Below, one piece after another: positions 41,901 to 56,240 of a DNA stretch of 64,000 nucleotides. Every line of letters begins with the position of its first letter. Positions within the stretch are counted from its first letter, which is position 1. The stretch lies in IMG/VR virus record IMGVR_UViG_3300012352_000355, positions 32,001 to 96,000 of that record. One strand, given 5' to 3'. The notes under the pieces were generated by a model. That model was not told the origin of the DNA. It did not search any database and was given only the letters and a program-made list of their open reading frames with translations. This stretch comes from a virus. Made by a program: the position numbers and the translations under genes.

Positions 41901-41933
41901 GCTTGTAAAGGAGACTTAGACGATTTAGCTTAA
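35955..41933 (+). CDS. Giant virion ejection protein (1992 aa) with hydrophobic Gly/Ala-rich region
   Basis: Size and gene order; GAMVAQMIPIIAGGALV and EALEEE motifs; Pro/Thr linkers. Confidence 0.75.
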   Translation: MPNKYQANLGPLSKSLAGAAPGDMRERFNTLIPLDVQNSFQQKAELAVLEQDRLDQQKGLQEQRNLKLNSLKSLYRQAMPNPQFADRAASSVFDRIENASSKQELNDIYSEIESIREKAQDNSFLFDGLETVVGLAQGLSSFGESFFRGKESLIDQKKKTLTQANADLTDISGSIIPQDLFSQGIAAIKEAEFTNYGKQTINQFGSPKGLYDALSKARMGTKAAYNNFDDFVKPRLEDAFATKGHYLYREGEEAPQFQQEARTAFANPTKDQTAANFKHDLEKESLSSVKSAIMGDLQKELLKPRDAVDYNPDNIKYLRNSLSIVDQRLNSLDQVYKVDKYASDAEKTLFGEGSSARRSVIKAFGDTLPGKLIQDKLFNASDFSQAVFSEAFYKPDIITYDKDNRPVMSNQFMYTKADGSRAFNWGSIPEAGGAMVAQMIPIIAGGALVEGVVSGVAAAELGAISSGAAGISRAYDALNKVSALGNELKLADRAATFASVAANTIPHFVEQEKRWGGDYVKRGLAGGIVEATAEAIGFPDVGALKMRPVTTTLASSAMRAAKLELNFGQRLGSYLNNTYQFAKLGAKQNAVEALEEEISLLGNAIVQNGIMPEEYALRDKEQVTAKSLTDTLVESFAAGLIYSFGTVGAGGYAYTRPENLQRQSNWEAANNPELFIAKLQDLKDKGKISDQDFVQGIAKVRTLEGTMKSLVGFDNIRDLKTLNLDKDEQFALFTNVLRRNELLEIDLDSMSDTEKEAFANYKAGNILAEESRKRQRLIRKQLAEFDRNPEPTKEEQKERERLTELYAKLKRGDIQYINKGSISEEDKKYFYEAGLLTDTDLQVSQEDIDKEIDSINKSILKTQKRIDRYANLTNSEKNEIIRKVYDEKIEAVLKVDSAADLVESRINLQKDLDYLRLKGEEEVPGQVEHKERLLDAYGKQMNDLVNERDEFGQNKVEQKVSNFDANTLEQAGDLFGIQEAYEYAKANKDHINSDLYTTVTENLADSNKRAQEAIAIAEPEVRTQVLTNFLDKAVAFKTNYAYNVDLVNKIFPLVEYTQEELDQAREALIQRRAQKKSQQILDTQVVEGGETEKEEQAEFSNIANQVASTPEVVSESGESNRDEMYLAGYNRMIDRAKASPLGFAKAFELAVKNRLSSVFTQNTKDYNTLINALDDLLDKKITPEEFRNIYLNVWRENKGNENKQNAVIFLKFIADRYFLNDMPADRVSSRTTPTAPITPTPAPVTPSPAKTTTSKNAPTPKQGTKVDKLNNEVTQQVQARLTQLESLASPLRTVAVEYNAANQKSTDPATLRNVALIEYIATTPGVRMRVMNRKLFLLNHIVENNETINTEAEALVEFNKIADHISENNMSLDTWNSLSDEDLDLLLAPLDLILGKNFFDKGNLRFFFTSVDAKFKGGKVYPVGTGLFVDPQVIITAVDEDGNTILKDGLPLELNFPRIEAQGFRISERVENDYEELGGDKENLRSKNQANYERMLAMTKLIKAANSFADTLPSLDFDHSVSSGVMLEAPITSYKVGNEVEVDNVQKAGIAEFKIAEDPREPIFGKNYSFRKGRVYFNNNGNPTLLTNNKIDPQEADALADLYFSEENPYFSSPKEAEEYLFNLINQVNKKDRLHFFVNEEYPGPGQFPVIIVKSTGTATGFKNEVLTKEEFAKELKNHYYKASLALMRSGEPIMRFKPSGMVTQSYSQYIKDTHNFPIQDGQVAMPVNKVIYLAPESLEKQFPEITGTAPKAPEVPKTPTPSPTAPKPSMVVAGVQNKVKNLSILPFDRALSAAQKSPGADYLVDPMQKVGEEFYNIALNTVLADPTKLTDIYYFKLVREPGVPAVSIERRKYDPEDADAVYASHFLGRVNVEGREKPVTVILVDPNVPFGKTYGTPRIMATIDLANPQEAVIQTYQQFTNPAPVPTPAPVTPAPTKRSMSALNAMRVGEVEKVEQASDSPFSDALLDEDELRAQAKESKEACKGDLDDLA

Positions 41934-42018: not shown

Positions 42019-45000
42019 ATGATTTGTCCAAATTTAAGTGATAATAAAGTACGTGCGGAGTTCACAAACCTTACTAATCTTGTAGGAGAAGACTTCGCTT
42101 ACTTTGTATGGAATAGGAATGGTGGCTATCCTCTAGACAAGAAGGTAGTTACAGTAAAGGGGAAAGAAACAGTAATTGATAATCCTTTATACAATCATTT
42201 CTTAGGCTCTTACAATAACGTAAAGCAAGCAACTCTTGCTACTAGTATTTATTACAGTAAGAAGTTACAGAAGAGTAATCCTGGATTTGATAATCTTCCT
42301 ATACAAGAACAGGCAAACATTATCCATGACTTTGTACAAGAGAATGAAACTTTAGAAAAAGCTTCTGAAAGAGTAATGAGATTCATTGCTCAAGGATTTA
42401 AAGCAGAACGTGTATTAGATGAATCTATTAGAAGAGTAGCCTTTGACGAAGCACGTAAGATAGCTAACGGAAGACAATTACTTGACTCTTATGTTTGGTT
42501 TAAGACTTCGCCTCTTTCTTTGTTTGTAGATTTTGCAAACATGCAGAACAAGGAGGAAAGTTCTTTTGCTACTTGGACTAAGTCAGCAATTACTTTATAC
42601 AAAGGATCTGATTACTCAGACCTTTATCACGAAGGTTGGCACGAATTTACACAGCGATTCATGACTAAGGAACAAAGAATTGCTTTGTACCAGTCAGTTA
42701 AATCAAGACCATCTACTGCTCTTATTAATGGTGTTCAAGTTCCTTACTATGCTTTGACTAGTCGTCAAATAGAAGAAGTACTTGCAGAAGAGTTTAGGTC
42801 TTTTTCTTTGAATAAGTCTAATCCTGAAGTAGTTGTTCCTAGAATAGAAGCTCCTGTAAGAAACTTGTTTCAAAAGATCTGGGATTTCTTAACAAGTATA
42901 TTTAATGCTTCACCTCAAGAGATTGCTTCTAGACCTGCAGAAGAAGTACAAGACGGTATAACTGCTTTGTTTGAAAAACTCTACGCAGGTAAAATATATG
43001 AGTACACGCCTAGTGTCACTAACATTAGTGAGAAAGTATTAAATAGAAACAAATCTTTTCAGATTAACTATGTAGCTAAAGACGGAAGAACAATTCCATT
43101 TGAGTATAATGCTTTAGAAGCTGCAGAGATCTTTAGTGCTATTGACTTCTTCCTAAGTAAGGCAATGGATGACTTTAAGACAAGTGATGGTACTAAGATT
43201 AAGTTAGAAATGTCTTTCTTGTTGAACAAAGATCTTAAGCAAGTATACTTGCCTCAACTATATGAAAGTGCTAGAAACTCTATGTTGCAGTATATCAGTG
43301 CATTAGAGGAAGAAGCAACTACTGCTGACGAGGCTACTGCAGAAGTACTTAAGCTACGTGTTAAAAACTTAAAAGGATTAGTAGTAAGAACTGCAGCAAA
43401 CGATGGTTGGGCTACTGTAGTAGAGAATCATCAGAGAGCATCTAAGGGTGGAGTATTTTACTTAGAAGAGAATAAGAAGTCTTACGATGTAGACAACCGA
43501 ATAGATGATCAAGATGAATCAGAGTTAAGGAGGGACAGTAGAAGTTTTGCTAACGCAGAAGACGTAGACCCTATGTCTCTAGCTTCTCCTGAGATTCTCC
43601 AGTTAATTAAGATTCTTCCTGGAACATACTATAACTCTTTAGGAGAAATGGTTACTGCTACAGGTCCTTCATTTGGATTACCTCAGTCAGGTGATTTCTT
43701 AAGAAATAAAAACTTAGTCTTAAGTAAAGTAAGTGGGTCAATTTCTTACGAAGAGGCTATACAAAGATTAGAGAATACATTAGATATTGCTCCTCAGTTA
43801 AGACAATTAATTGATAGACTTCCCCCTACTGATACTTCTTTAAGTCTTTCTCAGCTCGCACTTAAATCTCAGTTTATGCAGTTTGCTGCAATGCCTACGG
43901 TATATCCTTACGAGATCAAATCTTTGGTGCAAAATGAATTGTCTGCTGTAACTAAGAAGAAAGAAAAACGTCTGGAAACAAAAGCATTCTTAAACAATAC
44001 TCTTTCTCAAGACAAACTAATAGAGTTCTTTGATCAAGACTTTGTAAGTAATAGACTACGTAAGTATAGATTAATAGATCCTAAAGAAATAGATCTAGCA
44101 GTTTATGATAGGGCTAGTGTACTATCCGACTATAGAGCTTACACAGAGAATGGATTCACTTCTGATCAAGTTGCTTTTGAATTCTTAAATGATGCCTTTG
44201 GTATCAACTTAATTGCAGACAAGAATCCTAACTTATTGTTTAATAAGCGTGGAGAATTACAGTTAGGAGTTAATCCTATCTTTACTACTACAAACCTAAG
44301 AAACCTTGTCAAGATAGCTAACAATGCTTTGTTTAAGCTGAAGCTTCTTAGCCTTATAGATTCTTCTGGGGAAAATCTTAACACCCCTACCATCTCTTAT
44401 AATCCACTACTTGCTCTTTCTTCTGATATATCTAAACAGTTGAAAGAACAGATTAAAGAACTTAAGTCGGGAGAGAAGAACAAAGTAATTAAAGAGTACT
44501 TTGAAAAACATTTTAAGGCAGCTACTCTCGACAATGAAAGAACTTCTGCTTTTTCTACTATAGAAAAACTTTATAATATCTCTAACTCTGCTTCTTACTT
44601 AAACCCAGAAGGAAACTTAGAGTACGCAGTAAGAGAGTGGAATCACTTGTTAGACTCAGCATCTAAGATTAATAATGTAAAAAACATCTACGAACTAGAA
44701 GGACACTTAAACCCAGAGTCTAATAACTTCCTTGAGTATAGTTTAGTTATGAATGCTATGTTCCGTAAAGACGATGGAACTAGAAGGACTACTAACTCAG
44801 GTGAAGGAGTATACTTAGAGGTTTTAAACATGTCAGGTTTTACTATTGGTAAAACTAGAGGAGATAAAACAACTAACTTATCTGGTGACGGAAAACTCTT
44901 ACAAGACTTCCTTTCCTTTATTCAAGACGCTACCATAGAAAACATGAGGGTAGGAGCAAAGTCTAGTTCTTTTGCTACACGTTTGTCTGGAAACAGAGGA

Positions 45001-48000
45001 GAAAGGGAATATTTTAAATATGATCAGTATCAGTTCAAGAATCAAGCTGTAGTATCTTCTGACTTTATCAGACAGATGCAGAACTACTTGAACTTTGAGG
45101 CTATGCGTATGTTTGACGACAGAGCTAAATCTACGAGAAAAGAAAAAGCTGGATCTGAGTTTATCATACTAGACACTATACTTCCACAAGACATTAAAGA
45201 TAAAGTAAAGGAAGCAGTTAATGAGGCTCCTAACAAAGAGGCTCTTAAGTTGACTCTTAGGGGTATGTTTGGTTTGAGTGCTAATAGTCTCTATGGTCCA
45301 TTTAAAGATGCTGTTACAGCATACTTTAAGAGTTCTGCTGATGTATTGAAAGTTTCTTTTAATGAAATCTTAAGTAAGGGAGAGTCTAAGAATCTTGCAA
45401 AAGAATTTTATCGTATCCACAAAAAGCAAGATGGGACTGCCTATACACCAGAAGAGATAGATTCTGTTCTTCTTTACTTTACTACTAATTATTTTGCTCA
45501 CCAAGTAGAAGTAATGCACTTGTTAATCGGTGATCCTTCTAATTATAAGATTAAAAATAATGAATGGAGAGAAGCATTCAAACGTCTTGGTCCTGCAATT
45601 TCTCCAGGTAAACAACCTAGATTAGACCTACAAGACACTAACTCTTGGAATACAGATCCATCTCTTAGTAGAGGACTTGAAGAAGTACAAAGAGGAAAAG
45701 GAAAAGGTAGACCCTATGATACTAATTTAAACTACGTACAGTATGAGGATATCAAAACCTTTGAGTATTTAGATGAAGTTGCTAAGTCTTCTATCAAAGA
45801 AAGTATTAGACAAAACTATTTAGATGCTTTGATAGCAGCTAAGGGTCCTTTGAGTCCAGAGGAACTTGCAAGAGAGTCTGCTCAAATAGATTCAAATACT
45901 GATGCAGTACTAGTACAAGACGAAGAAGCGAATGCTCAGGCTTACGCAGGCTTAGACTTTATAAGATACTACTTAAATTCTATTGGAGAATGGCTTCCAG
46001 AACTAGAAGAAGCTTATAAACATGAGGTAAAGGTATTACAGGCAATTAAAAACTATAGACAATCTAACTCTACTGAAGATCTTGCTAAAGTAAAAGAGTT
46101 GGTTAGACAGAGTAATCTTGGAATACTGACTTCACTTAAACTAGGATACTATGGATCACCTACAGACTACAACAAGTACAATGTACTAGGTAAGTATTCT
46201 GTGTTCCCATTAAGTCCTTCTATGGTATTTGATACAGACTTAGAGAATCTTATGTTTGACTACCTAGACAAAGGAGTAGACATGTCTACTTTCTCTAGTG
46301 GTAATAAGATGTCTCTTCCTGTAAACGAAATGGCTTTTTATAATTCTGTTGAGTTGAATGGTAAAAAGATTCCAGTACCTAATGCAAATGGAGCTTTAGA
46401 AGTAACTAAGGTAGATCCTAATCTTATTGTAAGACTTCCAATAGACGGTCTCCGTAGACAACAGTATATTGCTCCTAAATTTAAGGGAGAAGCAACTTTG
46501 TCTACTCAGATGGTTAAGTTAATTTTCTCTAACTTTTTTGTATCAGGTAAGATTAACCCTAAGTATGCACACATTCAAGATAAGATAGAAGCTTTACAAG
46601 AGGCGTTTATTAATAACATTAAAACTATTGTAGAGGTAGAGAAAGCAAAAATCTATTCTAAGATTGGAGCAACTGTTAACGCAGAAGGAAAATTAACTAG
46701 CATTAACACAAAAGACTTTACTAACTGGTTACATAGAGAGTTTGATAAGAAGGAAGTACCTAGTTCTGTCTATGACTTTATTAGACCTTCTAATAACAAT
46801 CAGTTTGTATTTTCATTGGATGCAGGAGTACAAAGATCTCTCATAGACCAAATCATCTCTAGTGCTTTGTCTAAGCGTGTATTGAAACCTAAGATGTTTG
46901 GTGAGGCTTATATTCAATTGGCTTCTTCAGGATTTAACAAACTAGGTACTCGTAAACAAAAGCCTACTGTTGATGAGATCAAGACTATATCAAAAGAATT
47001 CAATGTAAGCGGTTTAAGAGACTATCGCATTGAGGATGGTGTAACTCAACCTGCTGATGTTTTGATTCCATTTAACGCAAAGAAACATGCTCCCTTGCTT
47101 AATTTAGTTTGGAACGGAGAAGTTATCGGAACACTAGATAGACTTAATGACGCACTAGATGATCCTCAGTGGGTTAAGACACACTCAGCTAAGATAACTC
47201 TTGTAGGTGTACGTATTCCTGTACAAGGATTAAACTCTATGGAGTACTTTAGAGTACGTAGATTCTTAGCAACTGTAGGTGGTCCTGTAATGGTTGTACC
47301 TCCTTCAATCGTAACTAAGTCTGGATCTGACTTTGACATAGATAAATTGTTTATGTACGAGCCTGAACTTGATGAGAATGGAGAGTTAATAGTTAACGCT
47401 GAACTAGCAAGTGCAGAATACAGAGCTAAGATTATTGAAAACATCCTAGACAAAAACACTTACTTAAAAGGTAAGGCACTTTTTCTAGATAACTTGTTTG
47501 ATTCAGAAAGCTTTAGGGAAGCAGGCTTAGTATCTAAAGAGATTGATTCTATTAAGAAAATGATCTCTGATCTAAAGGGTATTAAGACTTCTGGAGAAGA
47601 AGACGACATAGCTTACTTTAAAGAGAACATAGGTCCTTTGAACATGAAGTTAGGTATTGCTATTGAAAGATTTAAAACTTTACGTAACCAAGATCCTAAT
47701 GTTGTTCAGTTTCTAGAAAACTTAGCACAGTACAAAGAAGTTCTTTCTGAGATGGAAAACATTTCAGAGAAACTGATAAAGGGTTCAGCTTCTAACAATA
47801 TGATCTCGGTAATATCTGGTGTATTGTCTGAAGCTTCTATTTACTCAGAGTTTACAAAACCCAACGTTAATAAGATTCTTCCTGAGATTGCTAGAGAGTA
47901 TCAAGCACTGAAGGGCAGAGATAGTAAGATTGACTCTAGTGCAATGTTCTTGATTGAGACTTCAATAAGAATCTTTACAGAAAACAACTTGGGTAAGAAG

Positions 48001-50394
48001 TCTTTAGGTGTAGATGCAAAGACAAACGCTTTACATAAATTGTTCCAACAAGTAGGTTTAAGATTTGCTTCTAATCCACAGAATATAGACATTAATTCTT
48101 TCTACCTACTTAAGTCAAACAAGAATCCTGACACAGGTGAGATTGAGTTGGGGGGTCTTTACGATGCTGATGGAGTTAACTTAATCTCTGATGTAATCAA
48201 CGAGTTTATTAATGGTCACGTAGATATCGAGAAGGAAGACTGGATTAACTTCTTTAACGCTGATAGAGAACGTACTCCTTTAATTCTTCAAATGGTACTT
48301 AACGGTACTCCTGTAAAGGACGCTATCTTACTAGTAAACCAACCTATCATTCAACACTATATTAGATCTAGTAAGATTACTAAAGTAGGAAAAGCATTGG
48401 GTCAAAAGTCAGCAAGCTTATTTAAAGACTATATTACCCCTGCAATGAATTACTTAGACATTACTCCAGTAACTGTAGATGGTATAGTAGACGAGGCTGC
48501 TACTGTAGAAAAAGTACTTAGCATGCCTTCTATCAATAAGGCATTGTCTGCAGAAAACTTTAACAAAGAAAACTTTGCTCCTAATCCTTACGTAAGACGA
48601 TTTGCTTATGATAAAATTAAAGCAAATAGAAATACTCCTGAAGGTCAATCTGCACTAGAAGCTCAGTTAGCATTTGCTGCTCAGTATTATGTTGTTAAAG
48701 AACAGAATAAAGTCTTGTTAGAGTTAACTAGTAATATTGACTTTAACACTTCTTCATACCGTATCAACACAGAGTTTTATGCAACTACTCAAAACATTAA
48801 AGTAGCTGCTCCTAACTTTGCAGCTGAAGGGTTTAACAGAATACTAGAATCAAGTGTAGTAGCTCCTTTTAATATTCTTGAGGACACTGAAAAGCTTATT
48901 GACCAGGTTTGGGACTTCTTCTCTATAGAGGAGATTAAAGAACACCTATACAACGTTAAACAATCTTACGGTAAATACTGGGGTAGAGATGAATCTGTTA
49001 CCAATTACAATCAGTTGGTTAACTCTTTTATGTTGTCTTTTATTCAGAACATTCCAAGCCTTAAGTCTTTTCAAGATAACTATGGTATTAGTTCTGGCTT
49101 ATTTGATTTAAAATCTGCTAATAACTTAAGAACTAGATTCGATAAACTGTTTTCAAGTACAGAAGACAAGACTCTTAAGAGATTTGCCGAGAACAACTTA
49201 ATCTTAAACAACTTTAGTCCTATAAGTATACCTGATAGTAATTATTTCTATCCTGGTATGATTACAAATGAAAAGGACGTAGATACAGTTAATGCTGCTC
49301 AAAAAGCTTTCTCTGATGGTTTGAATCATCCTAACCCAGAAGTATCTAAGTTCTTTAGGGACTTAGCTAATGGTGTACTTGTATCTCAAGGTTTTAATAT
49401 TAAGTATCGCTCAATCCAAAACTTTATTCCTTTAGAGGCAAAGAGCGACTTAATGATAGAGTTGTCTATTGCTCTTAAGAAAATTAAGATAGGCTTAAGT
49501 AAGCCAGTAGAAGAGATGACAGAAAAAGACAGTGAGGACGCTATGGCATTTATGAGTTTGCTTGAAAGTACTACCTCTATGCATGCTAATCTTTATTGGC
49601 CTTCTAAGGATAACGATTTCATTCCTACTGCTTATATGAAAGCCTTTCCTAACTTTAAAGAAGAGGAAGCAAAGGCTGTTACTACTGAGAAGAAAAACTC
49701 AAGAGTAACAAACCAAGATGACTTGGACGAAGCAAAACTTTATGCTCAGCAGTTTGACAATGATATTCCTTCTATGGATGAACTAGACGAAGAACAATTA
49801 ATAACTAGGAGACTAATAGCTAAAGGCAAAACTGTTCCTGCTAAAACTCCTGCAACTTCTGTATCTACTAATGTTAATCCTGCAAGTAATAAGATAAACA
49901 TCTATGCAGGAGGTAAAGGAGAGAATGCTGAGTTAAGTAATTTTGCAGTAAGGCCTTTTTCTGAAACTTGGGATCTTTCACCACTAGGTATGGACTCGGA
50001 AACGTTAACTTTTAATACGGTAGAGGGAGCATTCCAGGCTACTAAGATTTTGTATAGTACCGATCTAAAAAATTATGATTTGTTACCACAGTTTCAAAAA
50101 TTATCTGGAGCACAAGCAAAAGCATTAGGTCAAAAAATTAAAGGATTGGATACAGAAGCATGGGATTCAAACTCTTCTGTAGTAATGAAAGATTTAATTA
50201 AAAAGTCTTTTGAACAAAATCCAGATGCTCTTGCTAAACTTATTGCCACAGGTAATGCCACCCTTACTCACACACAAGCTAAACGTAAGTGGGCTAAAGA
50301 ATTTCCTAGAATCCTGATGGAAGTAAGGGCTGAGTTAAGAGACAATAACCTAGAAGGATTTGATTTTGAAGTAACTAAGTGTATCGTAGATTGA
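42019..50394 (+). CDS. Virion RNA polymerase (crAss-like, two-barrel) with N-terminal zincin-like motif and C-terminal NADAR domain
   Basis: RIPVQG..S and GSDFDIDKL catalytic motifs (about 47210-47350); HEGWH...EEVLAEEF; C-terminal LSNF...TVEGAFQATK...M..LI..SFEQNP.....L..TG. Confidence 0.92.
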   Translation: MICPNLSDNKVRAEFTNLTNLVGEDFAYFVWNRNGGYPLDKKVVTVKGKETVIDNPLYNHFLGSYNNVKQATLATSIYYSKKLQKSNPGFDNLPIQEQANIIHDFVQENETLEKASERVMRFIAQGFKAERVLDESIRRVAFDEARKIANGRQLLDSYVWFKTSPLSLFVDFANMQNKEESSFATWTKSAITLYKGSDYSDLYHEGWHEFTQRFMTKEQRIALYQSVKSRPSTALINGVQVPYYALTSRQIEEVLAEEFRSFSLNKSNPEVVVPRIEAPVRNLFQKIWDFLTSIFNASPQEIASRPAEEVQDGITALFEKLYAGKIYEYTPSVTNISEKVLNRNKSFQINYVAKDGRTIPFEYNALEAAEIFSAIDFFLSKAMDDFKTSDGTKIKLEMSFLLNKDLKQVYLPQLYESARNSMLQYISALEEEATTADEATAEVLKLRVKNLKGLVVRTAANDGWATVVENHQRASKGGVFYLEENKKSYDVDNRIDDQDESELRRDSRSFANAEDVDPMSLASPEILQLIKILPGTYYNSLGEMVTATGPSFGLPQSGDFLRNKNLVLSKVSGSISYEEAIQRLENTLDIAPQLRQLIDRLPPTDTSLSLSQLALKSQFMQFAAMPTVYPYEIKSLVQNELSAVTKKKEKRLETKAFLNNTLSQDKLIEFFDQDFVSNRLRKYRLIDPKEIDLAVYDRASVLSDYRAYTENGFTSDQVAFEFLNDAFGINLIADKNPNLLFNKRGELQLGVNPIFTTTNLRNLVKIANNALFKLKLLSLIDSSGENLNTPTISYNPLLALSSDISKQLKEQIKELKSGEKNKVIKEYFEKHFKAATLDNERTSAFSTIEKLYNISNSASYLNPEGNLEYAVREWNHLLDSASKINNVKNIYELEGHLNPESNNFLEYSLVMNAMFRKDDGTRRTTNSGEGVYLEVLNMSGFTIGKTRGDKTTNLSGDGKLLQDFLSFIQDATIENMRVGAKSSSFATRLSGNRGEREYFKYDQYQFKNQAVVSSDFIRQMQNYLNFEAMRMFDDRAKSTRKEKAGSEFIILDTILPQDIKDKVKEAVNEAPNKEALKLTLRGMFGLSANSLYGPFKDAVTAYFKSSADVLKVSFNEILSKGESKNLAKEFYRIHKKQDGTAYTPEEIDSVLLYFTTNYFAHQVEVMHLLIGDPSNYKIKNNEWREAFKRLGPAISPGKQPRLDLQDTNSWNTDPSLSRGLEEVQRGKGKGRPYDTNLNYVQYEDIKTFEYLDEVAKSSIKESIRQNYLDALIAAKGPLSPEELARESAQIDSNTDAVLVQDEEANAQAYAGLDFIRYYLNSIGEWLPELEEAYKHEVKVLQAIKNYRQSNSTEDLAKVKELVRQSNLGILTSLKLGYYGSPTDYNKYNVLGKYSVFPLSPSMVFDTDLENLMFDYLDKGVDMSTFSSGNKMSLPVNEMAFYNSVELNGKKIPVPNANGALEVTKVDPNLIVRLPIDGLRRQQYIAPKFKGEATLSTQMVKLIFSNFFVSGKINPKYAHIQDKIEALQEAFINNIKTIVEVEKAKIYSKIGATVNAEGKLTSINTKDFTNWLHREFDKKEVPSSVYDFIRPSNNNQFVFSLDAGVQRSLIDQIISSALSKRVLKPKMFGEAYIQLASSGFNKLGTRKQKPTVDEIKTISKEFNVSGLRDYRIEDGVTQPADVLIPFNAKKHAPLLNLVWNGEVIGTLDRLNDALDDPQWVKTHSAKITLVGVRIPVQGLNSMEYFRVRRFLATVGGPVMVVPPSIVTKSGSDFDIDKLFMYEPELDENGELIVNAELASAEYRAKIIENILDKNTYLKGKALFLDNLFDSESFREAGLVSKEIDSIKKMISDLKGIKTSGEEDDIAYFKENIGPLNMKLGIAIERFKTLRNQDPNVVQFLENLAQYKEVLSEMENISEKLIKGSASNNMISVISGVLSEASIYSEFTKPNVNKILPEIAREYQALKGRDSKIDSSAMFLIETSIRIFTENNLGKKSLGVDAKTNALHKLFQQVGLRFASNPQNIDINSFYLLKSNKNPDTGEIELGGLYDADGVNLISDVINEFINGHVDIEKEDWINFFNADRERTPLILQMVLNGTPVKDAILLVNQPIIQHYIRSSKITKVGKALGQKSASLFKDYITPAMNYLDITPVTVDGIVDEAATVEKVLSMPSINKALSAENFNKENFAPNPYVRRFAYDKIKANRNTPEGQSALEAQLAFAAQYYVVKEQNKVLLELTSNIDFNTSSYRINTEFYATTQNIKVAAPNFAAEGFNRILESSVVAPFNILEDTEKLIDQVWDFFSIEEIKEHLYNVKQSYGKYWGRDESVTNYNQLVNSFMLSFIQNIPSLKSFQDNYGISSGLFDLKSANNLRTRFDKLFSSTEDKTLKRFAENNLILNNFSPISIPDSNYFYPGMITNEKDVDTVNAAQKAFSDGLNHPNPEVSKFFRDLANGVLVSQGFNIKYRSIQNFIPLEAKSDLMIELSIALKKIKIGLSKPVEEMTEKDSEDAMAFMSLLESTTSMHANLYWPSKDNDFIPTAYMKAFPNFKEEEAKAVTTEKKNSRVTNQDDLDEAKLYAQQFDNDIPSMDELDEEQLITRRLIAKGKTVPAKTPATSVSTNVNPASNKINIYAGGKGENAELSNFAVRPFSETWDLSPLGMDSETLTFNTVEGAFQATKILYSTDLKNYDLLPQFQKLSGAQAKALGQKIKGLDTEAWDSNSSVVMKDLIKKSFEQNPDALAKLIATGNATLTHTQAKRKWAKEFPRILMEVRAELRDNNLEGFDFEVTKCIVD

Positions 50395-50441: not shown

Positions 50442-53400
50442 ATGCCAAACGGTTGTGTAATAAAATATCCTAATCCCGTAACTGGGATGAATCAAACTTC
50501 AGTACTTGCCTACACTCTTTCTCAAATGGGGTACAGCACTGAAGAATCGATAAACTTAGTCAAAAGAGGCAGTACCTATTCTAAGAAGAATGGGTACAAT
50601 GCCTGGCCTAAGCCTATTAACAGACCTGAAGCACGCTTTGGTAACTTTATAGAAATAGACTCAGACAATCTTGTAGCTAATTTAGGACTAGACTCTGTAC
50701 TTAAACCTTCACAGGTTAGTTATATGAGAGCTGCTCAAGATTTGTTTGAAGATGTACAGGTAAGGGTGGATGCTCCTATTAACTTAAAACTGTTAATGGA
50801 ATTAGGAAACTATGTTAAGAAAGGAGGAGAAGCTTCTCTTAAGATAGAAGTAGTTAATCCTGAAGCACCATTAATACAAAGGATGTATAAAGTATATCCT
50901 GTTCCTGCTACTCCACTTAACCGTGAGTATTTATTTAGTTTCATTGAGACAGAAATATTTAGCAAGAACGTATCTATTGGAAAAGAAACAAGACTTGATT
51001 TCTTAAAGCCTTATATAGATTTCTCAGAGCCTGATATCTATGATACAATGGCTAAAATGCTAAACGATTCTCAGACACCTGCATACGAAAAGTATTTGAT
51101 TAAGAAACTACTTCCTATGATGGACTTAGTTCCGAGTATTACTTTTGACTTCTTTACAGGCTCAGACATTCTTCAGGTAGAAAAAATTCCTGCAGGACAA
51201 TACAATAGAGAGTTTAATAATATAAAATTAAACGTATTTGGACTTAAGAATGGGGATATGTCTAGTGCTAGGAGACTTATTCTACACGAAGTACTTCACT
51301 CTGTACTTTCTTCTGCTATTGACAATCCTATTAGCGAGGTAGACAAGAAACTAGTCAATTCTTTAAAGCCAGTATTAGCTTATTACAGGCAGAAATATTC
51401 TAGCGAAAAGTTTACAAATGAGTATTACGGTTTACAAGATTTACATGAGTTCGTATCTGAGTTCTTTACTAATCCTGAGTTTAGAGACTTACTAGAGTCT
51501 AACGATAGTAACTGGTTCTTAAAGACAATTGATGCTATCTGGAAATTCTTTACAGGCAAACTTCTATTAAACAAGAACGTAAATACTGTAGAGAACATAG
51601 AACAAATTCTAGAAGATATCTTTAACGATATTATATACTCTCAAGAAATCAATACGTCTCTTACCTATACTAATACTTCGAAGTTTGAATCTCCTCTAAG
51701 CTTCAATCAAATGCTTGAGATAGATAAGTTTACTGAGAACAACTCTGAACTTTTATCTGAATTCTCGGCTAACCTAGATAGATTACTAGCAGAAGATAAC
51801 TTGCTTAACTGGTCTAAGATTATAGATCAAGCAGAGTTCTTAGGAGTAAACGTAAATAGTGTACTAAGAACAAAAGATACTTTCGTAGAGATATCTCCTG
51901 CTGAAGCAAAAGAATCATTTAAATCTATGGTTACATTCTTCCACGAGACTGCTAAGTATCTAAGAAGTATACGTAACTCTCTTGATAAGTTAGCTGCAGA
52001 TCCTAACATAACAGCTGACCAAGTATTCAGACAGGCTTATCATGCTAAGGAACTAGGAGAACAATACATAAACTTTGTAGAGAAGTACAGAGAAGTAATG
52101 GGTAACATAGGTATAGATACTATCCTAGGAATCCAACTTCTTAATATAAAAAGTACTGCAGACTCTTTAAAGGAAGCGTACTTGAATAATGCAACTGAGG
52201 CTTTGGCTATTAAATTAGCAGATGAGTTTGCTCCACAAACTAAAGATGCTCAGAAACGTATCCAAGAAAACATTGAAAGATTTAAAGTTAGTTTGGCGAG
52301 TGCACAAAGCCTAGGTAACGCTAAACTTATAAAGCTTACTGAAGATAGAATCAAGAACGAAGAGGCTCGCTTACAGAGTCTTGCTACAAAGTCTAATATC
52401 ATTACTGCTCTTAAGGGACAGATTAAAGACATAGGTAACTTCTCTTTATTCTTAGAGTCAGCAGGTCTCTCAGGAAACGTAATTACTGGTACAGTAGGTG
52501 GTATGATTGCTAACCAATTTGATTCTGCTAATGTTAAAGCACAATCTATGGAGGTTAAACTTAAAAGATTAGCTGATGAGTTACAAAACCACTTGAAGAG
52601 TAAGGGTGTAGGAGTAAACACTTCTTTTGATTTTGAGAATGTTTTCGGAAGATTTCTTAAGAAAACTGAAGTAGTTGAAATGAAGAATGGTAAGATTGCT
52701 AAGAGAGACACTCTAGTCCTACTTAGTGAGATGGATGAGGTTCGCTACAACAACGACTTGATTAAACTAAAACAAGAATTAAGAGATCTCAAACAAACTA
52801 AAGTACAAGACTCTGCCGTAAAAGATCTTATTAAAGCTAAGGAAGCACAGATAAGAAACTTTAAACAACAGTACGAAGAACAGCCTTACCAAGAAGTCTA
52901 TTACCAAATCCAGAATATGTTAAGCTCAGAAGCAAGAGAAGCTAGAGACTTAATACTTCAAGAGATGGATAAGATTCAAGTAGGTAGTTTGAATGAAGAG
53001 AACTCTGAAGAACAGTTAGATAAACTAGAAGATCTCAAAGAAGATTTAGATCGTTTGGAGTCTGATTACGATAAAAACAAAAACTTAAAAGACGAAGAAG
53101 GTTTAAGAATCGCAGCTAATATAAGAGAGTGGAAGAGGAGTAGGACTGCTGCTCAACTCTACACCTACAATATCACTAAAGAAAATCAGGAACTCTTTGA
53201 TAGCCAACTTATTGCTAAGAAGAACGCTTACGATAAAGCTGTATCAGACTACGAACAGTCTTTGTCTGAGAAAGCAGATCCAGAAACTCTAGATTATAAA
53301 AAACAAACTGCAGAGTATTATAGAAAACAGTTTGAACTTTGGAAAGCTAACAACTGTGTTAGGAAGATTAGTCCAGAATTCTACAAAAATAGAAAGCAAA

Positions 53401-56240
53401 TAACTGATTCTATTGCTGCTATTCAGGGTAGATACCCTCTCCCTGACGGTGTACGTAAGATGGATGTGGTATGGGGAGAATTGTTTGACGTACTTAAAGG
53501 CTATAAAAATAGTGATAACTTTTATGAAGGCTCTAAGATTTCTTCTCCTAACGAAGACGGAACCCCTTCTAACATCTCTGCCATTGTAAGAAGCCTAGAA
53601 GAAGAGATTGAAGATATTAAAACAGTCTACAAGAAAGAGAACAAGATGTCTAAGGAAGATCAAGACGCTCTTACAGGGTTGTTTGCAAGCTTCTCAGATA
53701 TTCAAGAGAAGGTTTATACTCCAGACTATATAAAAGAATATACAAGTCGCTTAAACGCTGTTAAAACAAGTCTTATAGCAAAAGACTCTACAAGATACCA
53801 AGATCAATCAGACGACTCACTTCTTAAACTTGATGCCGAGAAAGAACTTAGAAAGACAGAATGGTACAAACAAAACCACAAGAAAGTAAGTGTATGGGAC
53901 TCAGTAAACTCTATTTGGACAAATACTGATGAGCCTTTGTACTTCTGGACTGCTACTGAACCTACTGATAAGACTTTAATTAGCGACACTTCTCCTTCTT
54001 TTAGATGGAATACAATCGCAGTTAATCCTATCTATGTAAGACCAGAGATCAAGAATGTAAGATATAGTAAGCGTGTTCCTTTGCGTACAGATAAAACAGA
54101 TTACAGAAACAAAGAGTACGACAAACTAGATACCAAAGAAAAAGAAATCTTAAAGAAAGTAACTGATATCTACTTAGAACTACAGAGTGGTACTCCTATG
54201 AATCTTAAAAAAGGATTAGAGTTACCTAGTGTAGTAATGGATGCTACTGAAAGATCTCTTAAAGGAACAAACTTGGGTACACTTAAGTCTAAGATATCTT
54301 CTACAGCACAATCTATCTGGGACAAAGCAACCTTTGAGGATGACGAAGAGGTACAAAGAGATACTGCTGGAACAGTTATGCAAAAGGTAAATAGAAAACT
54401 TTACTTAAAGTATAATAGACCTATCCCTGCAGATAAGATGAGCTTAAACATATTCAATAGCATTGCTATGTATGGAGCAGATCTTATTAGATTCAAAGAA
54501 GCTTATGCAGTAGTTCCTTACATCTATGGTATTCAAGACGTATTAAATAAGTCTATGCCTGGAAGTAAGATTGAAAAGATGATTAGCAACTTGTTTGAAC
54601 GTAAGTTACAGGGTAAGAGTCGTAAGTTTATAGTTAATAATAAAGCAGGAAGACTTGTAGAGAAAGTAGTAGATACAGCTTTAGCAGCTAACTCACCTAT
54701 TACTTTGGCTTTCCGACTTCCTTCAAGTGTAAAGAACTTTATGGCAGGTTCTGCTAACGTATTTATTCAAGCAGAAATGTATGGTTTGAGTCGTAAGGAA
54801 ATCTTTAAAGCTATGGGTAAGAACTCTGTGCACATAGCAGACTTGTTTCAGTCAGAAGTAGAGGATGGTAGGGACTCTGAGTACATCTCAAAGATGCGTT
54901 ACTTTAACGTAATGCCTGACGATCAACTTTCAGAAACAGGTAGAAAAGTATTTATATCTAAGCTAGGCAAATACCGTAAGTACAATCCTTTTAACTTCCT
55001 TGCGTTCTTTAGAACATTTGGAGAATTTGAAATGAGAAGTGCAGTAGCCGAGGCCCTTTCTGAAAAATTTCTTATACCTCTTACAGATAAACCTAACGGA
55101 GTACCATTGTTTGAGGCTTACGACTTTAAGGATGGAGTGCTTGTTCCTAAAGAAAGTATTATTGATAAAGAAGGTTTTGAGAAAATAGAACAATACTACA
55201 GAGGAAAACTTAACTTTATTAATGCAGCTATACAAGGTGCTTACGGATCTTTAGATAGAGGAGAGTATTCAAGATATACATTAGGTCGTATTATTGGTAA
55301 CATGAAAGGGTGGGTTGCTTACCAAGGTATGAGAAGATTTAAAACGAGTAGAAGTATTAATCCTAGATCAGGAGAAGAATTCCAAGGATTCTACACTACT
55401 GCTATACAGGCAATTAAACTTCTTTATCAAACAAACTTCTCTCTTCCTGCAACTAAAAACCTAATGACTCCTCAAGAGAGAGCAGAGGTAGAAGGTGCAG
55501 CCATAGATATGTTAGTACTGGCTGTGATTATGGGAGTATCCGCTATTCTTAATAGTATAAGATACGATGATGAGGACGAAGAGGATATGTATATTGTATA
55601 TTTCTTTCTTTACAACTTGTTGTTGATTGAAGATGAATTAAACAGTTTGAACCCTGTATTTAGTCCTTTGTCTATCTATCATTCTAGATTTGAGAATAAT
55701 GTAGATGGACAGAATTTTGCTCAATACTACTTGAACAGAAACGTTCTTCTTCCTTTTGCAGGAGCTACAGATGCACTTAAGTTAACTATGGAAATGGTTA
55801 ATCCATTTGATGATGTAAGTCCTTTTGATGAGTACGTACCTCGTAGTAAGAGTGGTAAAATTTCCAACCCAAAGAGATACCCACCAGATCCCACACTTAA
55901 AGGAGATACAGAAATTTCAGCAAGAATACAAAAACTATTTGGATTGAATGCTTCTATCAACTTCTTTTTAAATCCTGAATACCTATTTAGAAAGTATGAG
56001 AAATATAATCCTAAGTGGTACGTAAGTAGTCTGGATGCAGATTTAAAATCAGAAAAAAGATCTATCAATTCTATAGACAAACAAATTAAATCTATAGAAA
56101 GACAATATGACTACATAGATGATCCTGATACTAGACAGAGTCTTATGAATAAAGTAAGCGACTTAGAGAGGCAGAAAGAAGAATCAGGAGAAAGACAATC
56201 TAGTTTAACAGAAATATATTCAGAGACTGGGAGGAGGTAA
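50442..56240 (+). CDS. Giant virion ejection protein (1932 aa) with zincin-like metallopeptidase motif
   Basis: ILHEVLHS...YYGLQDLHEFVSEFFTNPEF; long coiled coils; hydrophobic C-terminal helices. Confidence 0.78.
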   Translation: MPNGCVIKYPNPVTGMNQTSVLAYTLSQMGYSTEESINLVKRGSTYSKKNGYNAWPKPINRPEARFGNFIEIDSDNLVANLGLDSVLKPSQVSYMRAAQDLFEDVQVRVDAPINLKLLMELGNYVKKGGEASLKIEVVNPEAPLIQRMYKVYPVPATPLNREYLFSFIETEIFSKNVSIGKETRLDFLKPYIDFSEPDIYDTMAKMLNDSQTPAYEKYLIKKLLPMMDLVPSITFDFFTGSDILQVEKIPAGQYNREFNNIKLNVFGLKNGDMSSARRLILHEVLHSVLSSAIDNPISEVDKKLVNSLKPVLAYYRQKYSSEKFTNEYYGLQDLHEFVSEFFTNPEFRDLLESNDSNWFLKTIDAIWKFFTGKLLLNKNVNTVENIEQILEDIFNDIIYSQEINTSLTYTNTSKFESPLSFNQMLEIDKFTENNSELLSEFSANLDRLLAEDNLLNWSKIIDQAEFLGVNVNSVLRTKDTFVEISPAEAKESFKSMVTFFHETAKYLRSIRNSLDKLAADPNITADQVFRQAYHAKELGEQYINFVEKYREVMGNIGIDTILGIQLLNIKSTADSLKEAYLNNATEALAIKLADEFAPQTKDAQKRIQENIERFKVSLASAQSLGNAKLIKLTEDRIKNEEARLQSLATKSNIITALKGQIKDIGNFSLFLESAGLSGNVITGTVGGMIANQFDSANVKAQSMEVKLKRLADELQNHLKSKGVGVNTSFDFENVFGRFLKKTEVVEMKNGKIAKRDTLVLLSEMDEVRYNNDLIKLKQELRDLKQTKVQDSAVKDLIKAKEAQIRNFKQQYEEQPYQEVYYQIQNMLSSEAREARDLILQEMDKIQVGSLNEENSEEQLDKLEDLKEDLDRLESDYDKNKNLKDEEGLRIAANIREWKRSRTAAQLYTYNITKENQELFDSQLIAKKNAYDKAVSDYEQSLSEKADPETLDYKKQTAEYYRKQFELWKANNCVRKISPEFYKNRKQITDSIAAIQGRYPLPDGVRKMDVVWGELFDVLKGYKNSDNFYEGSKISSPNEDGTPSNISAIVRSLEEEIEDIKTVYKKENKMSKEDQDALTGLFASFSDIQEKVYTPDYIKEYTSRLNAVKTSLIAKDSTRYQDQSDDSLLKLDAEKELRKTEWYKQNHKKVSVWDSVNSIWTNTDEPLYFWTATEPTDKTLISDTSPSFRWNTIAVNPIYVRPEIKNVRYSKRVPLRTDKTDYRNKEYDKLDTKEKEILKKVTDIYLELQSGTPMNLKKGLELPSVVMDATERSLKGTNLGTLKSKISSTAQSIWDKATFEDDEEVQRDTAGTVMQKVNRKLYLKYNRPIPADKMSLNIFNSIAMYGADLIRFKEAYAVVPYIYGIQDVLNKSMPGSKIEKMISNLFERKLQGKSRKFIVNNKAGRLVEKVVDTALAANSPITLAFRLPSSVKNFMAGSANVFIQAEMYGLSRKEIFKAMGKNSVHIADLFQSEVEDGRDSEYISKMRYFNVMPDDQLSETGRKVFISKLGKYRKYNPFNFLAFFRTFGEFEMRSAVAEALSEKFLIPLTDKPNGVPLFEAYDFKDGVLVPKESIIDKEGFEKIEQYYRGKLNFINAAIQGAYGSLDRGEYSRYTLGRIIGNMKGWVAYQGMRRFKTSRSINPRSGEEFQGFYTTAIQAIKLLYQTNFSLPATKNLMTPQERAEVEGAAIDMLVLAVIMGVSAILNSIRYDDEDEEDMYIVYFFLYNLLLIEDELNSLNPVFSPLSIYHSRFENNVDGQNFAQYYLNRNVLLPFAGATDALKLTMEMVNPFDDVSPFDEYVPRSKSGKISNPKRYPPDPTLKGDTEISARIQKLFGLNASINFFLNPEYLFRKYEKYNPKWYVSSLDADLKSEKRSINSIDKQIKSIERQYDYIDDPDTRQSLMNKVSDLERQKEESGERQSSLTEIYSETGRR

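What the first reader, a model, noticed from the sequence alone, without database searches (positions are those of the whole stretch)
49891..50340. NADAR domain fused to the C-terminus of the virion RNA polymerase
Seen: after a PAKTPAT linker, a ~150-aa domain with LSNF, TVEGAFQATK, AKALG..I, W.....VM..LI..SF.QNP...L..TG and LMEVR. Established: this is the NADAR/YbiA pattern, and NADAR enzymes can remove ADP-ribose from guanine in DNA, acting as antitoxins of DarT1. Inference: an anti-defence enzyme injected with the genome and tethered to the RNAP, able to clear ADP-ribosylated template before any phage gene is expressed.
Basis: partly seen in the sequence, partly recalled or inferred. Interest (0 to 1): 0.75.

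Follow-up and report, generated by a model that had tools for sequence, protein, structure and literature searches.

The report
NADAR payload on crAss virion polymerase
A crAss-like phage's giant RNA polymerase, of the kind packed into the virus particle, ends in a real ADP-ribose-removing (NADAR) enzyme domain that sits in a slot which near-identical phages fill with other modules, so it is probably a ready-made counter-defence tool delivered with the DNA, though its claimed target (DarT1) is not supported.

Summary
ORF 42019-50394 (2791 aa) is a Crassvirales virion-type RNA polymerase. It has a unique GSDFDIDK motif at aa 1771, and a profile of its core matches phi14:2 gp66 at E 2.3e-69. Residues 2625-2777 (nt 49891-50349) form a NADAR domain: Pfam 7.8e-14, AlphaFold pLDDT 88.8, and Z 17.0 to Phytophthora NADAR bound to ADP-ribose.

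The Glu-x6-Lys dyad (E2669, K2676) and the phage-type His (H2751) are present and invariant in about 160 clade members. This copy alone has Ala at a 96%-conserved Asp (D2754A). Its NADAR part also carries excess non-synonymous change against 99%-identical sisters (5:2 versus 16:107).

The domain occupies a swappable slot. A protein 98% identical over aa 1-2623 carries DUF7831 plus a SLOG-like module there instead, yet keeps the same last 16 residues with a lone Cys.

The fusion recurs: 45 of the 120 best NADAR-bearing giant proteins hold the polymerase core. This scan has already noted it in at least 31 other genomes.

The DarT1 reading is weak. In 401 genomes of the likely host phylum, 34 have DarT. 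The five best sit next to macrodomains (the DarTG2 layout), and none has an adjacent NADAR.

Verdict: a new variant of the known "polyvalent protein" strategy. Activity, packaging and substrate are untested.

The parts
42019..50394 (+). Giant ORF of 2791 aa: a crAss-type virion RNA polymerase built as a polyvalent protein
   Evidence: Single open frame. The same ORF occurs at 99% identity in L002, L003 and L009. tblastn hits the annotated RNAP genes of crAss001 and crAss002. It lies downstream of TerL, portal, major capsid and crAss muzzle genes.
45316..47718 (+). RNA polymerase core (aa 1100-1900), homologous to phi14:2 gp66
   Evidence: 1366 clusters at 50% identity match it. A profile of 145 homologues hits phi14:2 gp66 at E 2.3e-69, and direct BLASTP gives 4.8e-8.
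47329..47343 (+). Catalytic DFDID motif (aa 1771-1775)
   Evidence: The only DxDxD in the protein. It aligns with gp66 1361-DFDID-1365, which is the active-site motif described in 10.1101/2020.03.07.982082.
49825..49890 (+). Pro/Thr/Ser-rich linker (aa 2603-2624). The upstream boundary of the swappable slot lies at about aa 2611.
   Evidence: Identity to P0311 (98%) and to the ~70% relatives ends here. The first 20 model residues have pLDDT of about 70.
49891..50349 (+). NADAR domain (aa 2625-2777), of the YbiA-like minimal core type
   Evidence: Pfam PF08719 at E 7.8e-14. AF2 pLDDT 88.8. Foldseek gives 2b3w TM 0.68/0.70 and 8bau at E 2.6e-5. VIA-align gives Z 17.0, 14.7 and 9.2 to 8bau, 2b3w and 8bat.
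50023..50046 (+). Glu-x6-Lys catalytic dyad, E2669 and K2676 (EGAFQATK)
   Evidence: E is present in 157 of 157 and K in 158 of 158 aligned clade members. They align with the T4 AdfN Glu and Lys, which are E36/K43 and essential for counter-defence.
50266..50280 (+). THTQA segment. T2750 lies where YbiA has its catalytic Glu. H2751 is the phage-type His. A2754 replaces a near-invariant Asp.
   Evidence: H is present in 168 of 168 members. Asp occupies the 2754 column in 160 of 167 and no other member has Ala. The 99% sisters have Asp. Active T4 AdfN has Ala in the aligned column.
50344..50391 (+). Conserved C-terminal tail NNLEGFDFEVTKCIVD with lone Cys2788. This is the downstream boundary of the slot.
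   Evidence: 15 of 16 residues are identical in P0311 despite its different cassette. L011 ends in DFEVTKCRED after NADAR, cpYpsA and DUF7831. 344 of 365 giant homologues have a Cys in the last 8 residues, against an overall Cys frequency of 0.07%.

Best explanation
The 2791-aa protein is the virion-type two-barrel RNA polymerase of a crAss-like phage. Near its C-terminus, between a flexible linker and a conserved 16-residue Cys-bearing tail, it has a payload slot. In this phage the slot holds one NADAR-family ADP-ribosyl N-glycohydrolase domain of the phage (His) type.

Inferred mechanism: the polymerase is packed into the capsid and ejected into the host with the DNA, as shown for phi14:2 gp66. 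The NADAR therefore arrives pre-made, before any phage gene is expressed. There it removes host-made ADP-ribose from nucleobases: guanine, and possibly cytosine, in single-stranded DNA or RNA near the polymerase. This blunts an ADP-ribosylation-based defence.

The slot is exchanged between closely related phages, as expected of a counter-defence payload under an arms race.

Shown here: domain identity, fold, key residues, the fusion, its recurrence and the cassette swap. Inferred: packaging and ejection of this protein, enzymatic activity, the substrate, and any benefit of tethering.
For: - **Polymerase identity:**
- **Crassvirales layout:** TerL, portal, major capsid protein and the PF25731 muzzle protein.
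- **NADAR sequence and fold:**
- **Key residues:** E2669, K2676 and H2751 are invariant in the clade and align with T4 AdfN. AdfN's Glu and Lys are required for anti-DarTG1 activity (PMC11257639).
- **Activity of relatives:** every phage NADAR tested so far removes guanine-linked ADP-ribose. NADARs, T4's included, also act on guanosine-ADP-ribosylated RNA (PMC11833690). Some NADARs (not tested for T4's) also reverse cytidine ADP-ribosylation (PMC12945103).
- **Delivery and template:** gp66 is virion-packed, is translocated, and transcribes single-stranded but not double-stranded DNA in vitro. Single-stranded DNA is also what DarT enzymes modify (DarT2).
- **Slot behaviour:** P0311 is 98.2% identical up to aa 2623, then carries DUF7831 plus a SLOG-like module, then the same tail. 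Relatives at about 70% identity carry NADAR+cpYpsA+DUF7831, cpYpsA alone, DUF7831 plus more, or a separate ART-PolyVal gene.
- **Recurrence:** 45 of the 120 best NADAR giant proteins contain the polymerase core, with the NADAR C-terminal of the core in 40 of the 45. 8 of the 120 nearest polymerase clusters carry NADAR; others carry AlkB-like PF13532, cpYpsA, DUF7831 or a Zeta-toxin-like kinase.
- **Mostly fused:** only 42 short homologues were found, many on contigs of about 1 kb.
Against: - No experiment exists on this protein or on any crAss NADAR.
- This copy has Ala at a position where 160 of 167 clade members have Asp, plus two other unusual residues (L2695, R2756). Its NADAR part shows 5 non-synonymous to 2 synonymous differences from its 99% sisters, against 16:107 in the rest of the protein (Fisher p 0.0012). 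That could mean relaxed constraint.
- The domain lacks the basic N-terminal extension proposed to bind single-stranded DNA in DarT1-linked NADARs (Z only 9.2 to 8bat).
- No DarT-NADAR pair was seen in 401 sampled genomes of the likely host phylum.
- Iyer et al. 2022 argue that phage NADARs mainly target soluble ADP-ribose derivatives.
- The host of this phage is unknown.
Confidence: 0.6

Rival explanations
1. The NADAR is an anti-DarT1 enzyme that removes ADP-ribose from guanine on the phage's single-stranded template, acting as an orphan DarG1-like antitoxin tethered to the polymerase.
For: All phage NADARs tested so far (T4 AdfN, and those of Bas32 and Bas60) counter DarTG1. gp66-type polymerases use single-stranded templates. 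The catalytic Glu and Lys are present.
Against: It is not the DarG1 type. Thr-His replaces the Asp, there is no N-terminal basic extension, and structural similarity is lowest to G. lovleyi DarG1. PADLOC gave no DarG hit. In 401 genomes of the phylum of a Flavobacteriales MAG, 34 have DarT. The five best are adjacent to macrodomains (the DarTG2 layout), and none of the 34 has a NADAR next to DarT. NADARs do not reverse thymidine ADP-ribosylation.
Confidence: 0.2
2. The NADAR degrades small soluble ADP-ribose-derived molecules, such as immune signals or toxic NAD breakdown products, rather than nucleic-acid adducts. The polymerase serves only as the delivery vehicle.
For: Iyer et al. 2022 propose this for phage NADAR, Macro, SLOG and Nudix domains and note frequent SLOG-NADAR combinations. 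Relatives of this polymerase combine NADAR with the cpYpsA SLOG domain, or replace NADAR by it.
Against: [quoted passage not shown] Every biochemical test cited here found nucleobase de-ADP-ribosylation. Other slot occupants are nucleic-acid enzymes: AlkB-like dioxygenases and PIF1/RecD-like helicases. This phage has no SLOG, Macro or DUF7831 partner.
Confidence: 0.15
3. In this particular genome the NADAR is a decaying or functionally shifted passenger. The slot content is under relaxed constraint and the enzyme is weakened or inactive.
For: The window-specific D2754A change lies in a 96%-conserved column, and L2695 and R2756 are also unusual. Non-synonymous to synonymous change is 5:2 in the NADAR against 16:107 elsewhere, measured against 99% sisters.
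Against: E2669, K2676 and H2751 and all other invariant residues are intact, and there is no stop or frameshift. Active T4 AdfN has Ala in the column aligned with 2754. The comparison rests on seven differences. The same pattern would also arise from positive selection for a new specificity.
Confidence: 0.1
4. The NADAR is the eraser partner of a phage-encoded, co-injected ADP-ribosyltransferase. It keeps that enzyme from damaging the phage's own DNA or polymerase.
For: Some giant NADAR proteins also carry ART-PolyVal PF18760. Relatives L005 and L006 have an ART-PolyVal gene directly after the polymerase.
Against: No ART-PolyVal match was found in this 111-kb record, which is about 94% complete. 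L005 and L006 have the transferase but no NADAR.
Confidence: 0.04

Closest known systems
T4 AdfN (gp30.3), the phage NADAR anti-DarTG1 factor (PMC11257639, PMC11125620)
   Same: Both are phage-encoded NADARs. They share the Glu-x6-Lys dyad and a His where YbiA and DarG1 have an acidic residue. There is a weak Pfam Phage_30_3 match. A counter-defence role is plausible for both.
   Different: Identity is only 23%, and the PF08010 score of 21.3 bits is below the 36-bit cut-off. AdfN is a free-standing 152-aa early-region gene. Here the domain is part of a 2791-aa virion-type polymerase and would be delivered pre-made.
Polyvalent proteins of phages and conjugative elements (Iyer et al. 2017, PMC5512222), and the prediction that NADARs are virion-packaged (Iyer et al. 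2022, PMC9503650)
   Same: A giant multidomain protein in a late/virion gene block combines an early-acting enzyme (the RNAP) with variable conflict domains. N4-like virion RNAPs fused to MPTase, ART, lysozyme and PBECR domains are the precedent. Relatives use ART-PolyVal and SLOG domains.
   Different: The 2017 survey mentions neither NADAR, SLOG nor crAss (0 occurrences each), and its RNAP module is the T7-like N4 type. The 2022 paper calls viral NADARs 'typically standalone'. Here the carrier is the two-barrel crAss polymerase.
Cellulophaga phage phi14:2 gp66 virion RNA polymerase (PDB 6VR4; 10.1101/2020.03.07.982082)
   Same: The polymerase core and the DFDID motif are homologous. The gene sits in the same position after the tail/muzzle genes. 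gp66 is the source of the inference of packaging, ejection and early transcription.
   Different: gp66 has 2180 aa and stands here for the plain form: the clade NADAR profile was not run against gp66. The window protein is about 600 aa longer and has the C-terminal payload slot.
DarG1 (the BC4488-type NADAR antitoxin of DarT1; Schuller et al. 2023, PMC11543638)
   Same: The NADAR fold and the conserved Glu and Lys.
   Different: The catalytic Asp (D171 in E. coli C7) is replaced, the basic N-terminal extension is missing, there is no adjacent DarT, and structural similarity is weaker (Z 9.2).

Membership tests
NADAR superfamily (Pfam PF08719) | Sequence match above the curated threshold | tested here: met
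   52.7 bits against a 35.1-bit cut-off, E 7.8e-14. The clade profile matches YbiA at 3.9e-16.
NADAR superfamily (Pfam PF08719) | YbiA fold: a helical core flanked by two small sheets | tested here: met
   AF2 pLDDT 88.8. Z 17.0 to 8bau (rmsd 2.1 over 146 residues) and Z 14.7 to 2b3w; the next unrelated chain scores Z 2.4.
NADAR superfamily (Pfam PF08719) | Conserved catalytic Glu and Lys (E88/K95 in E. coli C7; E36/K43 in T4 AdfN) | tested here: met
   E2669 and K2676 have the same spacing, are invariant in the clade, and align with T4 AdfN.
NADAR superfamily (Pfam PF08719) | ADP-ribosyl N-glycohydrolase activity | not testable with these tools
   Needs an enzyme assay.
Phage NADAR / gp30.3 (AdfN) type | His in place of the acidic residue of the last strand | tested here: met
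   T2750-H2751 lies where YbiA has Glu-His. The His is invariant (168 of 168) and aligns with the T4 gp30.3 His.
Phage NADAR / gp30.3 (AdfN) type | Match to Pfam Phage_30_3 (PF08010) above the cut-off | tested here: not met
   21.3 bits against 36. hhalign to T4 gp30.3 gives only 72% probability over 54 columns. It works like this type but is a separate clade.
DarG1 (DarT1-associated BC4488 NADAR) | Catalytic Asp (D171 in E. coli C7) and the basic N-terminal YbiA-fold extension | tested here: not met
   The family motif is THTQD/A. The core starts directly after the linker. Z is 9.2 to G. lovleyi DarG1, against 17.0 and 14.7 to the NADARs not linked to DarT.
DarG1 (DarT1-associated BC4488 NADAR) | Encoded next to a DarT1 toxin | tested here: not met
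   It is part of a phage polymerase gene. I did not search this phage record for DarT. PADLOC gave no DarG hit.
YbiA riboflavin-intermediate N-glycosidase (TIGR02464) | Equivalog score above the cut-off | tested here: not met
   42.7 bits against 73.7. The catalytic Glu position holds Thr.
Crassvirales virion RNA polymerase (phi14:2 gp66 family) | Homology to gp66, including the DFDxD active-site motif | tested here: met
   Profile E 2.3e-69, with GSDFDIDK aligned to gp66 residues 1361-1365.
Crassvirales virion RNA polymerase (phi14:2 gp66 family) | Presence in the virion and translocation into the host | not testable with these tools
   Shown for gp66 only (MS/MS notes). Inferred here from homology and gene position.
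Polyvalent proteins (Iyer et al. 2017) | A large multidomain protein in a virion/late gene context with variable conflict-related domains across relatives | tested here: met
   The variable C-terminal modules are.

The most novel reading that the evidence does not exclude
The C-terminus of crAss-type virion polymerases is a dedicated, hot-swappable payload bay. It is bounded by a conserved linker and a conserved Cys-bearing tail peptide, and phages that are 98% identical load it with different anti-defence enzymes. The NADAR version works in cis: it strips ADP-ribose from the single-stranded template or the nascent RNA at the very polymerase that must transcribe the first genes. It would target an as yet uncharacterised guanine- or cytosine-directed ADP-ribosyltransferase defence of Bacteroidota, not DarT1.
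Probability: 0.3. Interest if true: 0.75.

Novelty: new variant of a known kind. Interest (0 to 1): 0.5.

Why it matters
Phage NADARs were shown only in 2024 to be counter-defence enzymes, and those examples are free-standing genes that must first be expressed. Here the enzyme would be delivered pre-made on the one protein that has to work before any phage gene is read, in the most abundant phage order of the gut and in aquatic relatives.

The swap between 98%-identical phages gives natural isogenic pairs. These could be used to test what each payload protects against, and so to find ADP-ribosylation-based defences in Bacteroidota. The sample searched here showed only DarTG2-like loci.

The idea itself (polyvalent injected proteins, packaged NADARs) has been predicted in print. 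This scan has also met the same architecture in many other genomes, so the finding is incremental rather than surprising.

Tried and rejected
- **Direct search against solved structures:** phmmer of the whole protein did not find 6VR4. Homology to gp66 needed a family profile.
- **DUF7831 fold:** I folded DUF7831, the alternative slot occupant, from a 5-sequence alignment. The result was pLDDT 36 and is unusable. The ESM Atlas only returned DUF7831 clusters. Its function stays unknown.
- **DNA-level breakpoints of the swap:** The swap is shown at protein level only.
- **Host relatives:** I reached the likely host phylum through a Flavobacteriales MAG locus instead.
- **Literature:** the search for DarTG in Bacteroidota returned nothing useful. 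I found no paper that combines Crassvirales with NADAR, DUF1768 or YbiA.
- **Base composition:** there is no deviation across the cassette (GC about 0.35 throughout), so no sign of recent foreign origin.
- **Own ADP-ribosyltransferase partner:** rejected for this genome. There is no ART-PolyVal, cpYpsA, DUF7831 or Macro match in the record, although three of those four searches had no positive control.
- **Riboflavin-type YbiA function:** rejected (TIGR02464 below cut-off, catalytic Glu replaced).


Full report
**What is there.** The window comes from a 111-kb IMG/VR virus record that is about 94% complete. It encodes a large terminase (8264), a portal (10299), a major capsid protein (14053) and a crAss muzzle protein (23839-28890, Pfam PF25731). 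A block of five large genes follows, of 823, 570, 1992, 2791 and 1932 aa. This is the Crassvirales layout.

The finding lies in the 2791-aa ORF 42019-50394. The stretch 49891-50340 is aa 2625-2774.

**The carrier is the virion-type RNA polymerase.**
- tblastn places aa 1128-1841 on the annotated RNA polymerase genes of crAss001, crAss002 and many uncultured crAss phages.
- The protein has a single DxDxD motif, GSDFDIDK, at aa 1771.
- phmmer of aa 1100-1900 against 1.84 billion representatives finds 1366 clusters, nearly all giant proteins.
- A profile of 145 of these cores matches Cellulophaga phage phi14:2 gp66 at E 2.3e-69. The motif aligns to gp66 1361-DFDID-1365, and direct BLASTP gives 4.8e-8.
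- gp66 has been shown to be virion-packed and translocated into the host. It transcribes the early genes, and in vitro it copies single-stranded or denatured DNA but not double-stranded DNA.
- Packaging of the window protein itself is inferred from this homology and from gene position.

**The tail is a NADAR domain.**
- Pfam NADAR scores 52.7 bits against a 35.1-bit cut-off, E 7.8e-14.
- A profile of 31 clade members hits E. coli YbiA at 3.9e-16 and Phytophthora NADAR at 5.5e-11.
- AlphaFold2 gives mean pLDDT 88.8.
- Foldseek finds 2b3w and 8bau as the only significant chains.
- VIA-align gives Z 17.0 (rmsd 2.1 over 146 residues) to 8bau, 14.7 to 2b3w and 9.2 to the DarT1-linked G. lovleyi NADAR. 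Nothing unrelated scores above 2.4.

**Catalytic residues.** Mutagenesis identified E88, K95 and D171 in the E. coli C7 antitoxin, and the corresponding E36 and K43 in T4 AdfN. The third position is Glu in YbiA-type, Asp in DarT1-linked and His in phage NADARs.
- The window has E2669 and K2676 with the same spacing. Its THTQ segment places H2751 next to the position of the YbiA Glu.
- In 169 other members of this clade, Glu, Lys and His are present in every sequence that covers the column. They align with the Glu, Lys and His of T4 gp30.3.
- The domain is therefore of the phage His type, but it is a separate clade. Identity to gp30.3 is 23%, and PF08010 scores below its cut-off.
- It is not a YbiA equivalog (TIGR02464 at 42.7 against 73.7 bits).
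- It is not a DarG1 type either: it has no Asp, no N-terminal basic extension and no PADLOC DarG hit.

**A caveat specific to this copy.** Three contigs carry the same gene at 99% identity. There are 130 differing codons.
- The 173-aa tail (aa 2619-2791, mostly NADAR) holds 5 non-synonymous and 2 synonymous changes. The rest of the protein holds 16 and 107 (Fisher p 0.0012).
- The window alone has Ala at 2754. Asp occupies that column in 160 of 167 clade members and in the sister contigs.
- L2695 and R2756 are also unusual.
- Active T4 AdfN has Ala in the aligned column, so this need not inactivate the enzyme.
- The pattern points either to relaxed constraint or to selection for altered specificity.

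**The slot is swappable.** This is the most informative result.
- P0311 (2981 aa) is 98.2% identical to the window protein over aa 1-2623. After the shared GKTVPAK linker it carries about 345 unrelated residues: DUF7831 followed by a SLOG-like GIGSR segment. It then ends in NNLEGFDFEVTKCIID, which matches the window's last 16 residues at 15 of 16 positions.
- Relatives at about 70% identity show further arrangements: NADAR+cpYpsA+DUF7831, again ending in DFEVTKCRED (L011 and L012); cpYpsA followed by a separate ART-PolyVal gene (L005 and L006); DUF7831 plus more than 700 further residues (L004); and an unrecognised long tail (L007, P0314).
- Among the 120 nearest polymerase clusters, 8 carry NADAR, 9 DUF7831, 3 cpYpsA, 4 an AlkB-like dioxygenase, 1 a Zeta-toxin-like kinase and 1 a histidine phosphatase.
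- Conversely, at least 758 giant proteins carry this NADAR clade at 47-64% identity. They often also carry PIF1/RecD-like helicases, ART-PolyVal or AlkB-like domains.
- 45 of the best 120 contain a recognisable polymerase core, with the NADAR C-terminal of the core in 40 of the 45.
- Only 42 short homologues exist, many on contigs of about 1 kb that are probably fragments.
- In cr131_1 the NADAR ends a separate 1401-aa protein of the same gene block.

**What it probably does.** Every phage NADAR tested removes guanine-linked ADP-ribose and counters DarTG1. NADARs, T4's included, also reverse guanosine ADP-ribosylation of RNA, and some reverse cytidine ADP-ribosylation.

A pre-made copy that enters the cell with the polymerase would act before any phage gene is expressed. 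A polymerase that works on single-stranded template exposes exactly the kind of DNA that DarT-type enzymes attack. This reasoning is plausible but inferred.

**The named target, DarT1, is not supported.** Crassvirales infect Bacteroidota (PMC7886860, cited), and MAG contigs carrying this NADAR clade are most often labelled Bacteroidota.
- In 401 genomes of the phylum of a Flavobacteriales MAG, 34 have a DarT gene.
- The five best-scoring DarT genes lie next to macrodomain genes, which is the DarTG2 layout.
- None of the 34 has a NADAR next to DarT.
- NADARs do not reverse DarT2's thymidine adduct.
- The real target may therefore be another ADP-ribosyltransferase. Alternatively, as Iyer et al. 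2022 argue and as the SLOG partners in relatives suggest, it may be soluble ADP-ribose derivatives.
- This phage has no ART-PolyVal, SLOG, DUF7831 or Macro domain of its own. That weakens the idea of an eraser for the phage's own transferase.

**Comparison with what is known.** The strategy matches the polyvalent proteins of Iyer et al. 2017. That survey describes N4-type virion polymerases fused to protease, transferase, lysozyme and RNase modules, but does not mention NADAR, SLOG or crAss.

The 2022 survey predicts virion-packaged NADARs but calls them typically standalone. I found no paper linking Crassvirales and NADAR. Public annotations do already label some of these giants as DUF1768 or YbiA.

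Within this scan, the same architecture has been reported in at least 31 other genomes, and follow-up readers reached similar conclusions. I checked everything stated here independently.

**Verdict.** This is a new variant of a known kind. Interest is moderate: it is a clean, testable case with natural swap variants, but it is anticipated in principle and recurrent.

Noticed in passing
window 42025-42027 (Cys3) and 50380-50382 (Cys2788); also the 1992-aa protein (35955-41933) and the 1932-aa protein (50442-56240): The giant polymerase proteins are almost free of Cys (0.07% across 365 homologues). Even so, 344 of 365 have a Cys within the last 8 residues, and most start with MICPN. The Cys-bearing tail is kept whatever payload precedes it. 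In the window, the 1992-aa protein has its only Cys 9 residues from its end, and the 1932-aa protein has a Cys at residue 5. This supports the earlier notes on terminal cysteines. The function is unknown; disulfide linkage, metal binding or an ejection or packaging signal are possible.
   Followed up: partly
window 42019-42150, compared with L015:16782-16907 (cr131_1 gp47) and cr130_1: The first ~40 residues of the window polymerase match the N-terminus of a different giant protein (2026 aa) in the distant crAss phages cr131_1 and cr130_1 (one search hits H22 and H23). This suggests a shared N-terminal signal among cargo proteins.
   Followed up: no
L005:11541-12527 and L006:11541-12527: In relatives at about 70% identity, a 328-aa ART-PolyVal ADP-ribosyltransferase gene follows the polymerase directly, and the polymerase there ends in a cpYpsA SLOG domain instead of NADAR.
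   Followed up: partly
P0311 aa 2624-2756; L011:11806-12315; L004:10801-11295: DUF7831 is the commonest alternative occupant of the slot and also follows NADAR in some proteins. Its fold could not be predicted from the few sequences at hand (pLDDT 36). It has a conserved YxFTDN...TQA..RG..N..PI.T pattern.
   Followed up: partly
P0369, P0367, P0384, P0387 and P0395: Other polymerases of this family carry a Zeta-toxin-like kinase plus AAA_33, AlkB-like 2OG-Fe(II) dioxygenases, or a histidine phosphatase. The payload repertoire is therefore wider than ADP-ribose enzymes.
   Followed up: no
G090, G333, G131, G285 and G085 (loci L033-L037): The DarT genes in Bacteroidota genomes of the sample sit directly next to macrodomain genes of 346-378 aa. 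These are DarTG2-like pairs.
   Followed up: partly
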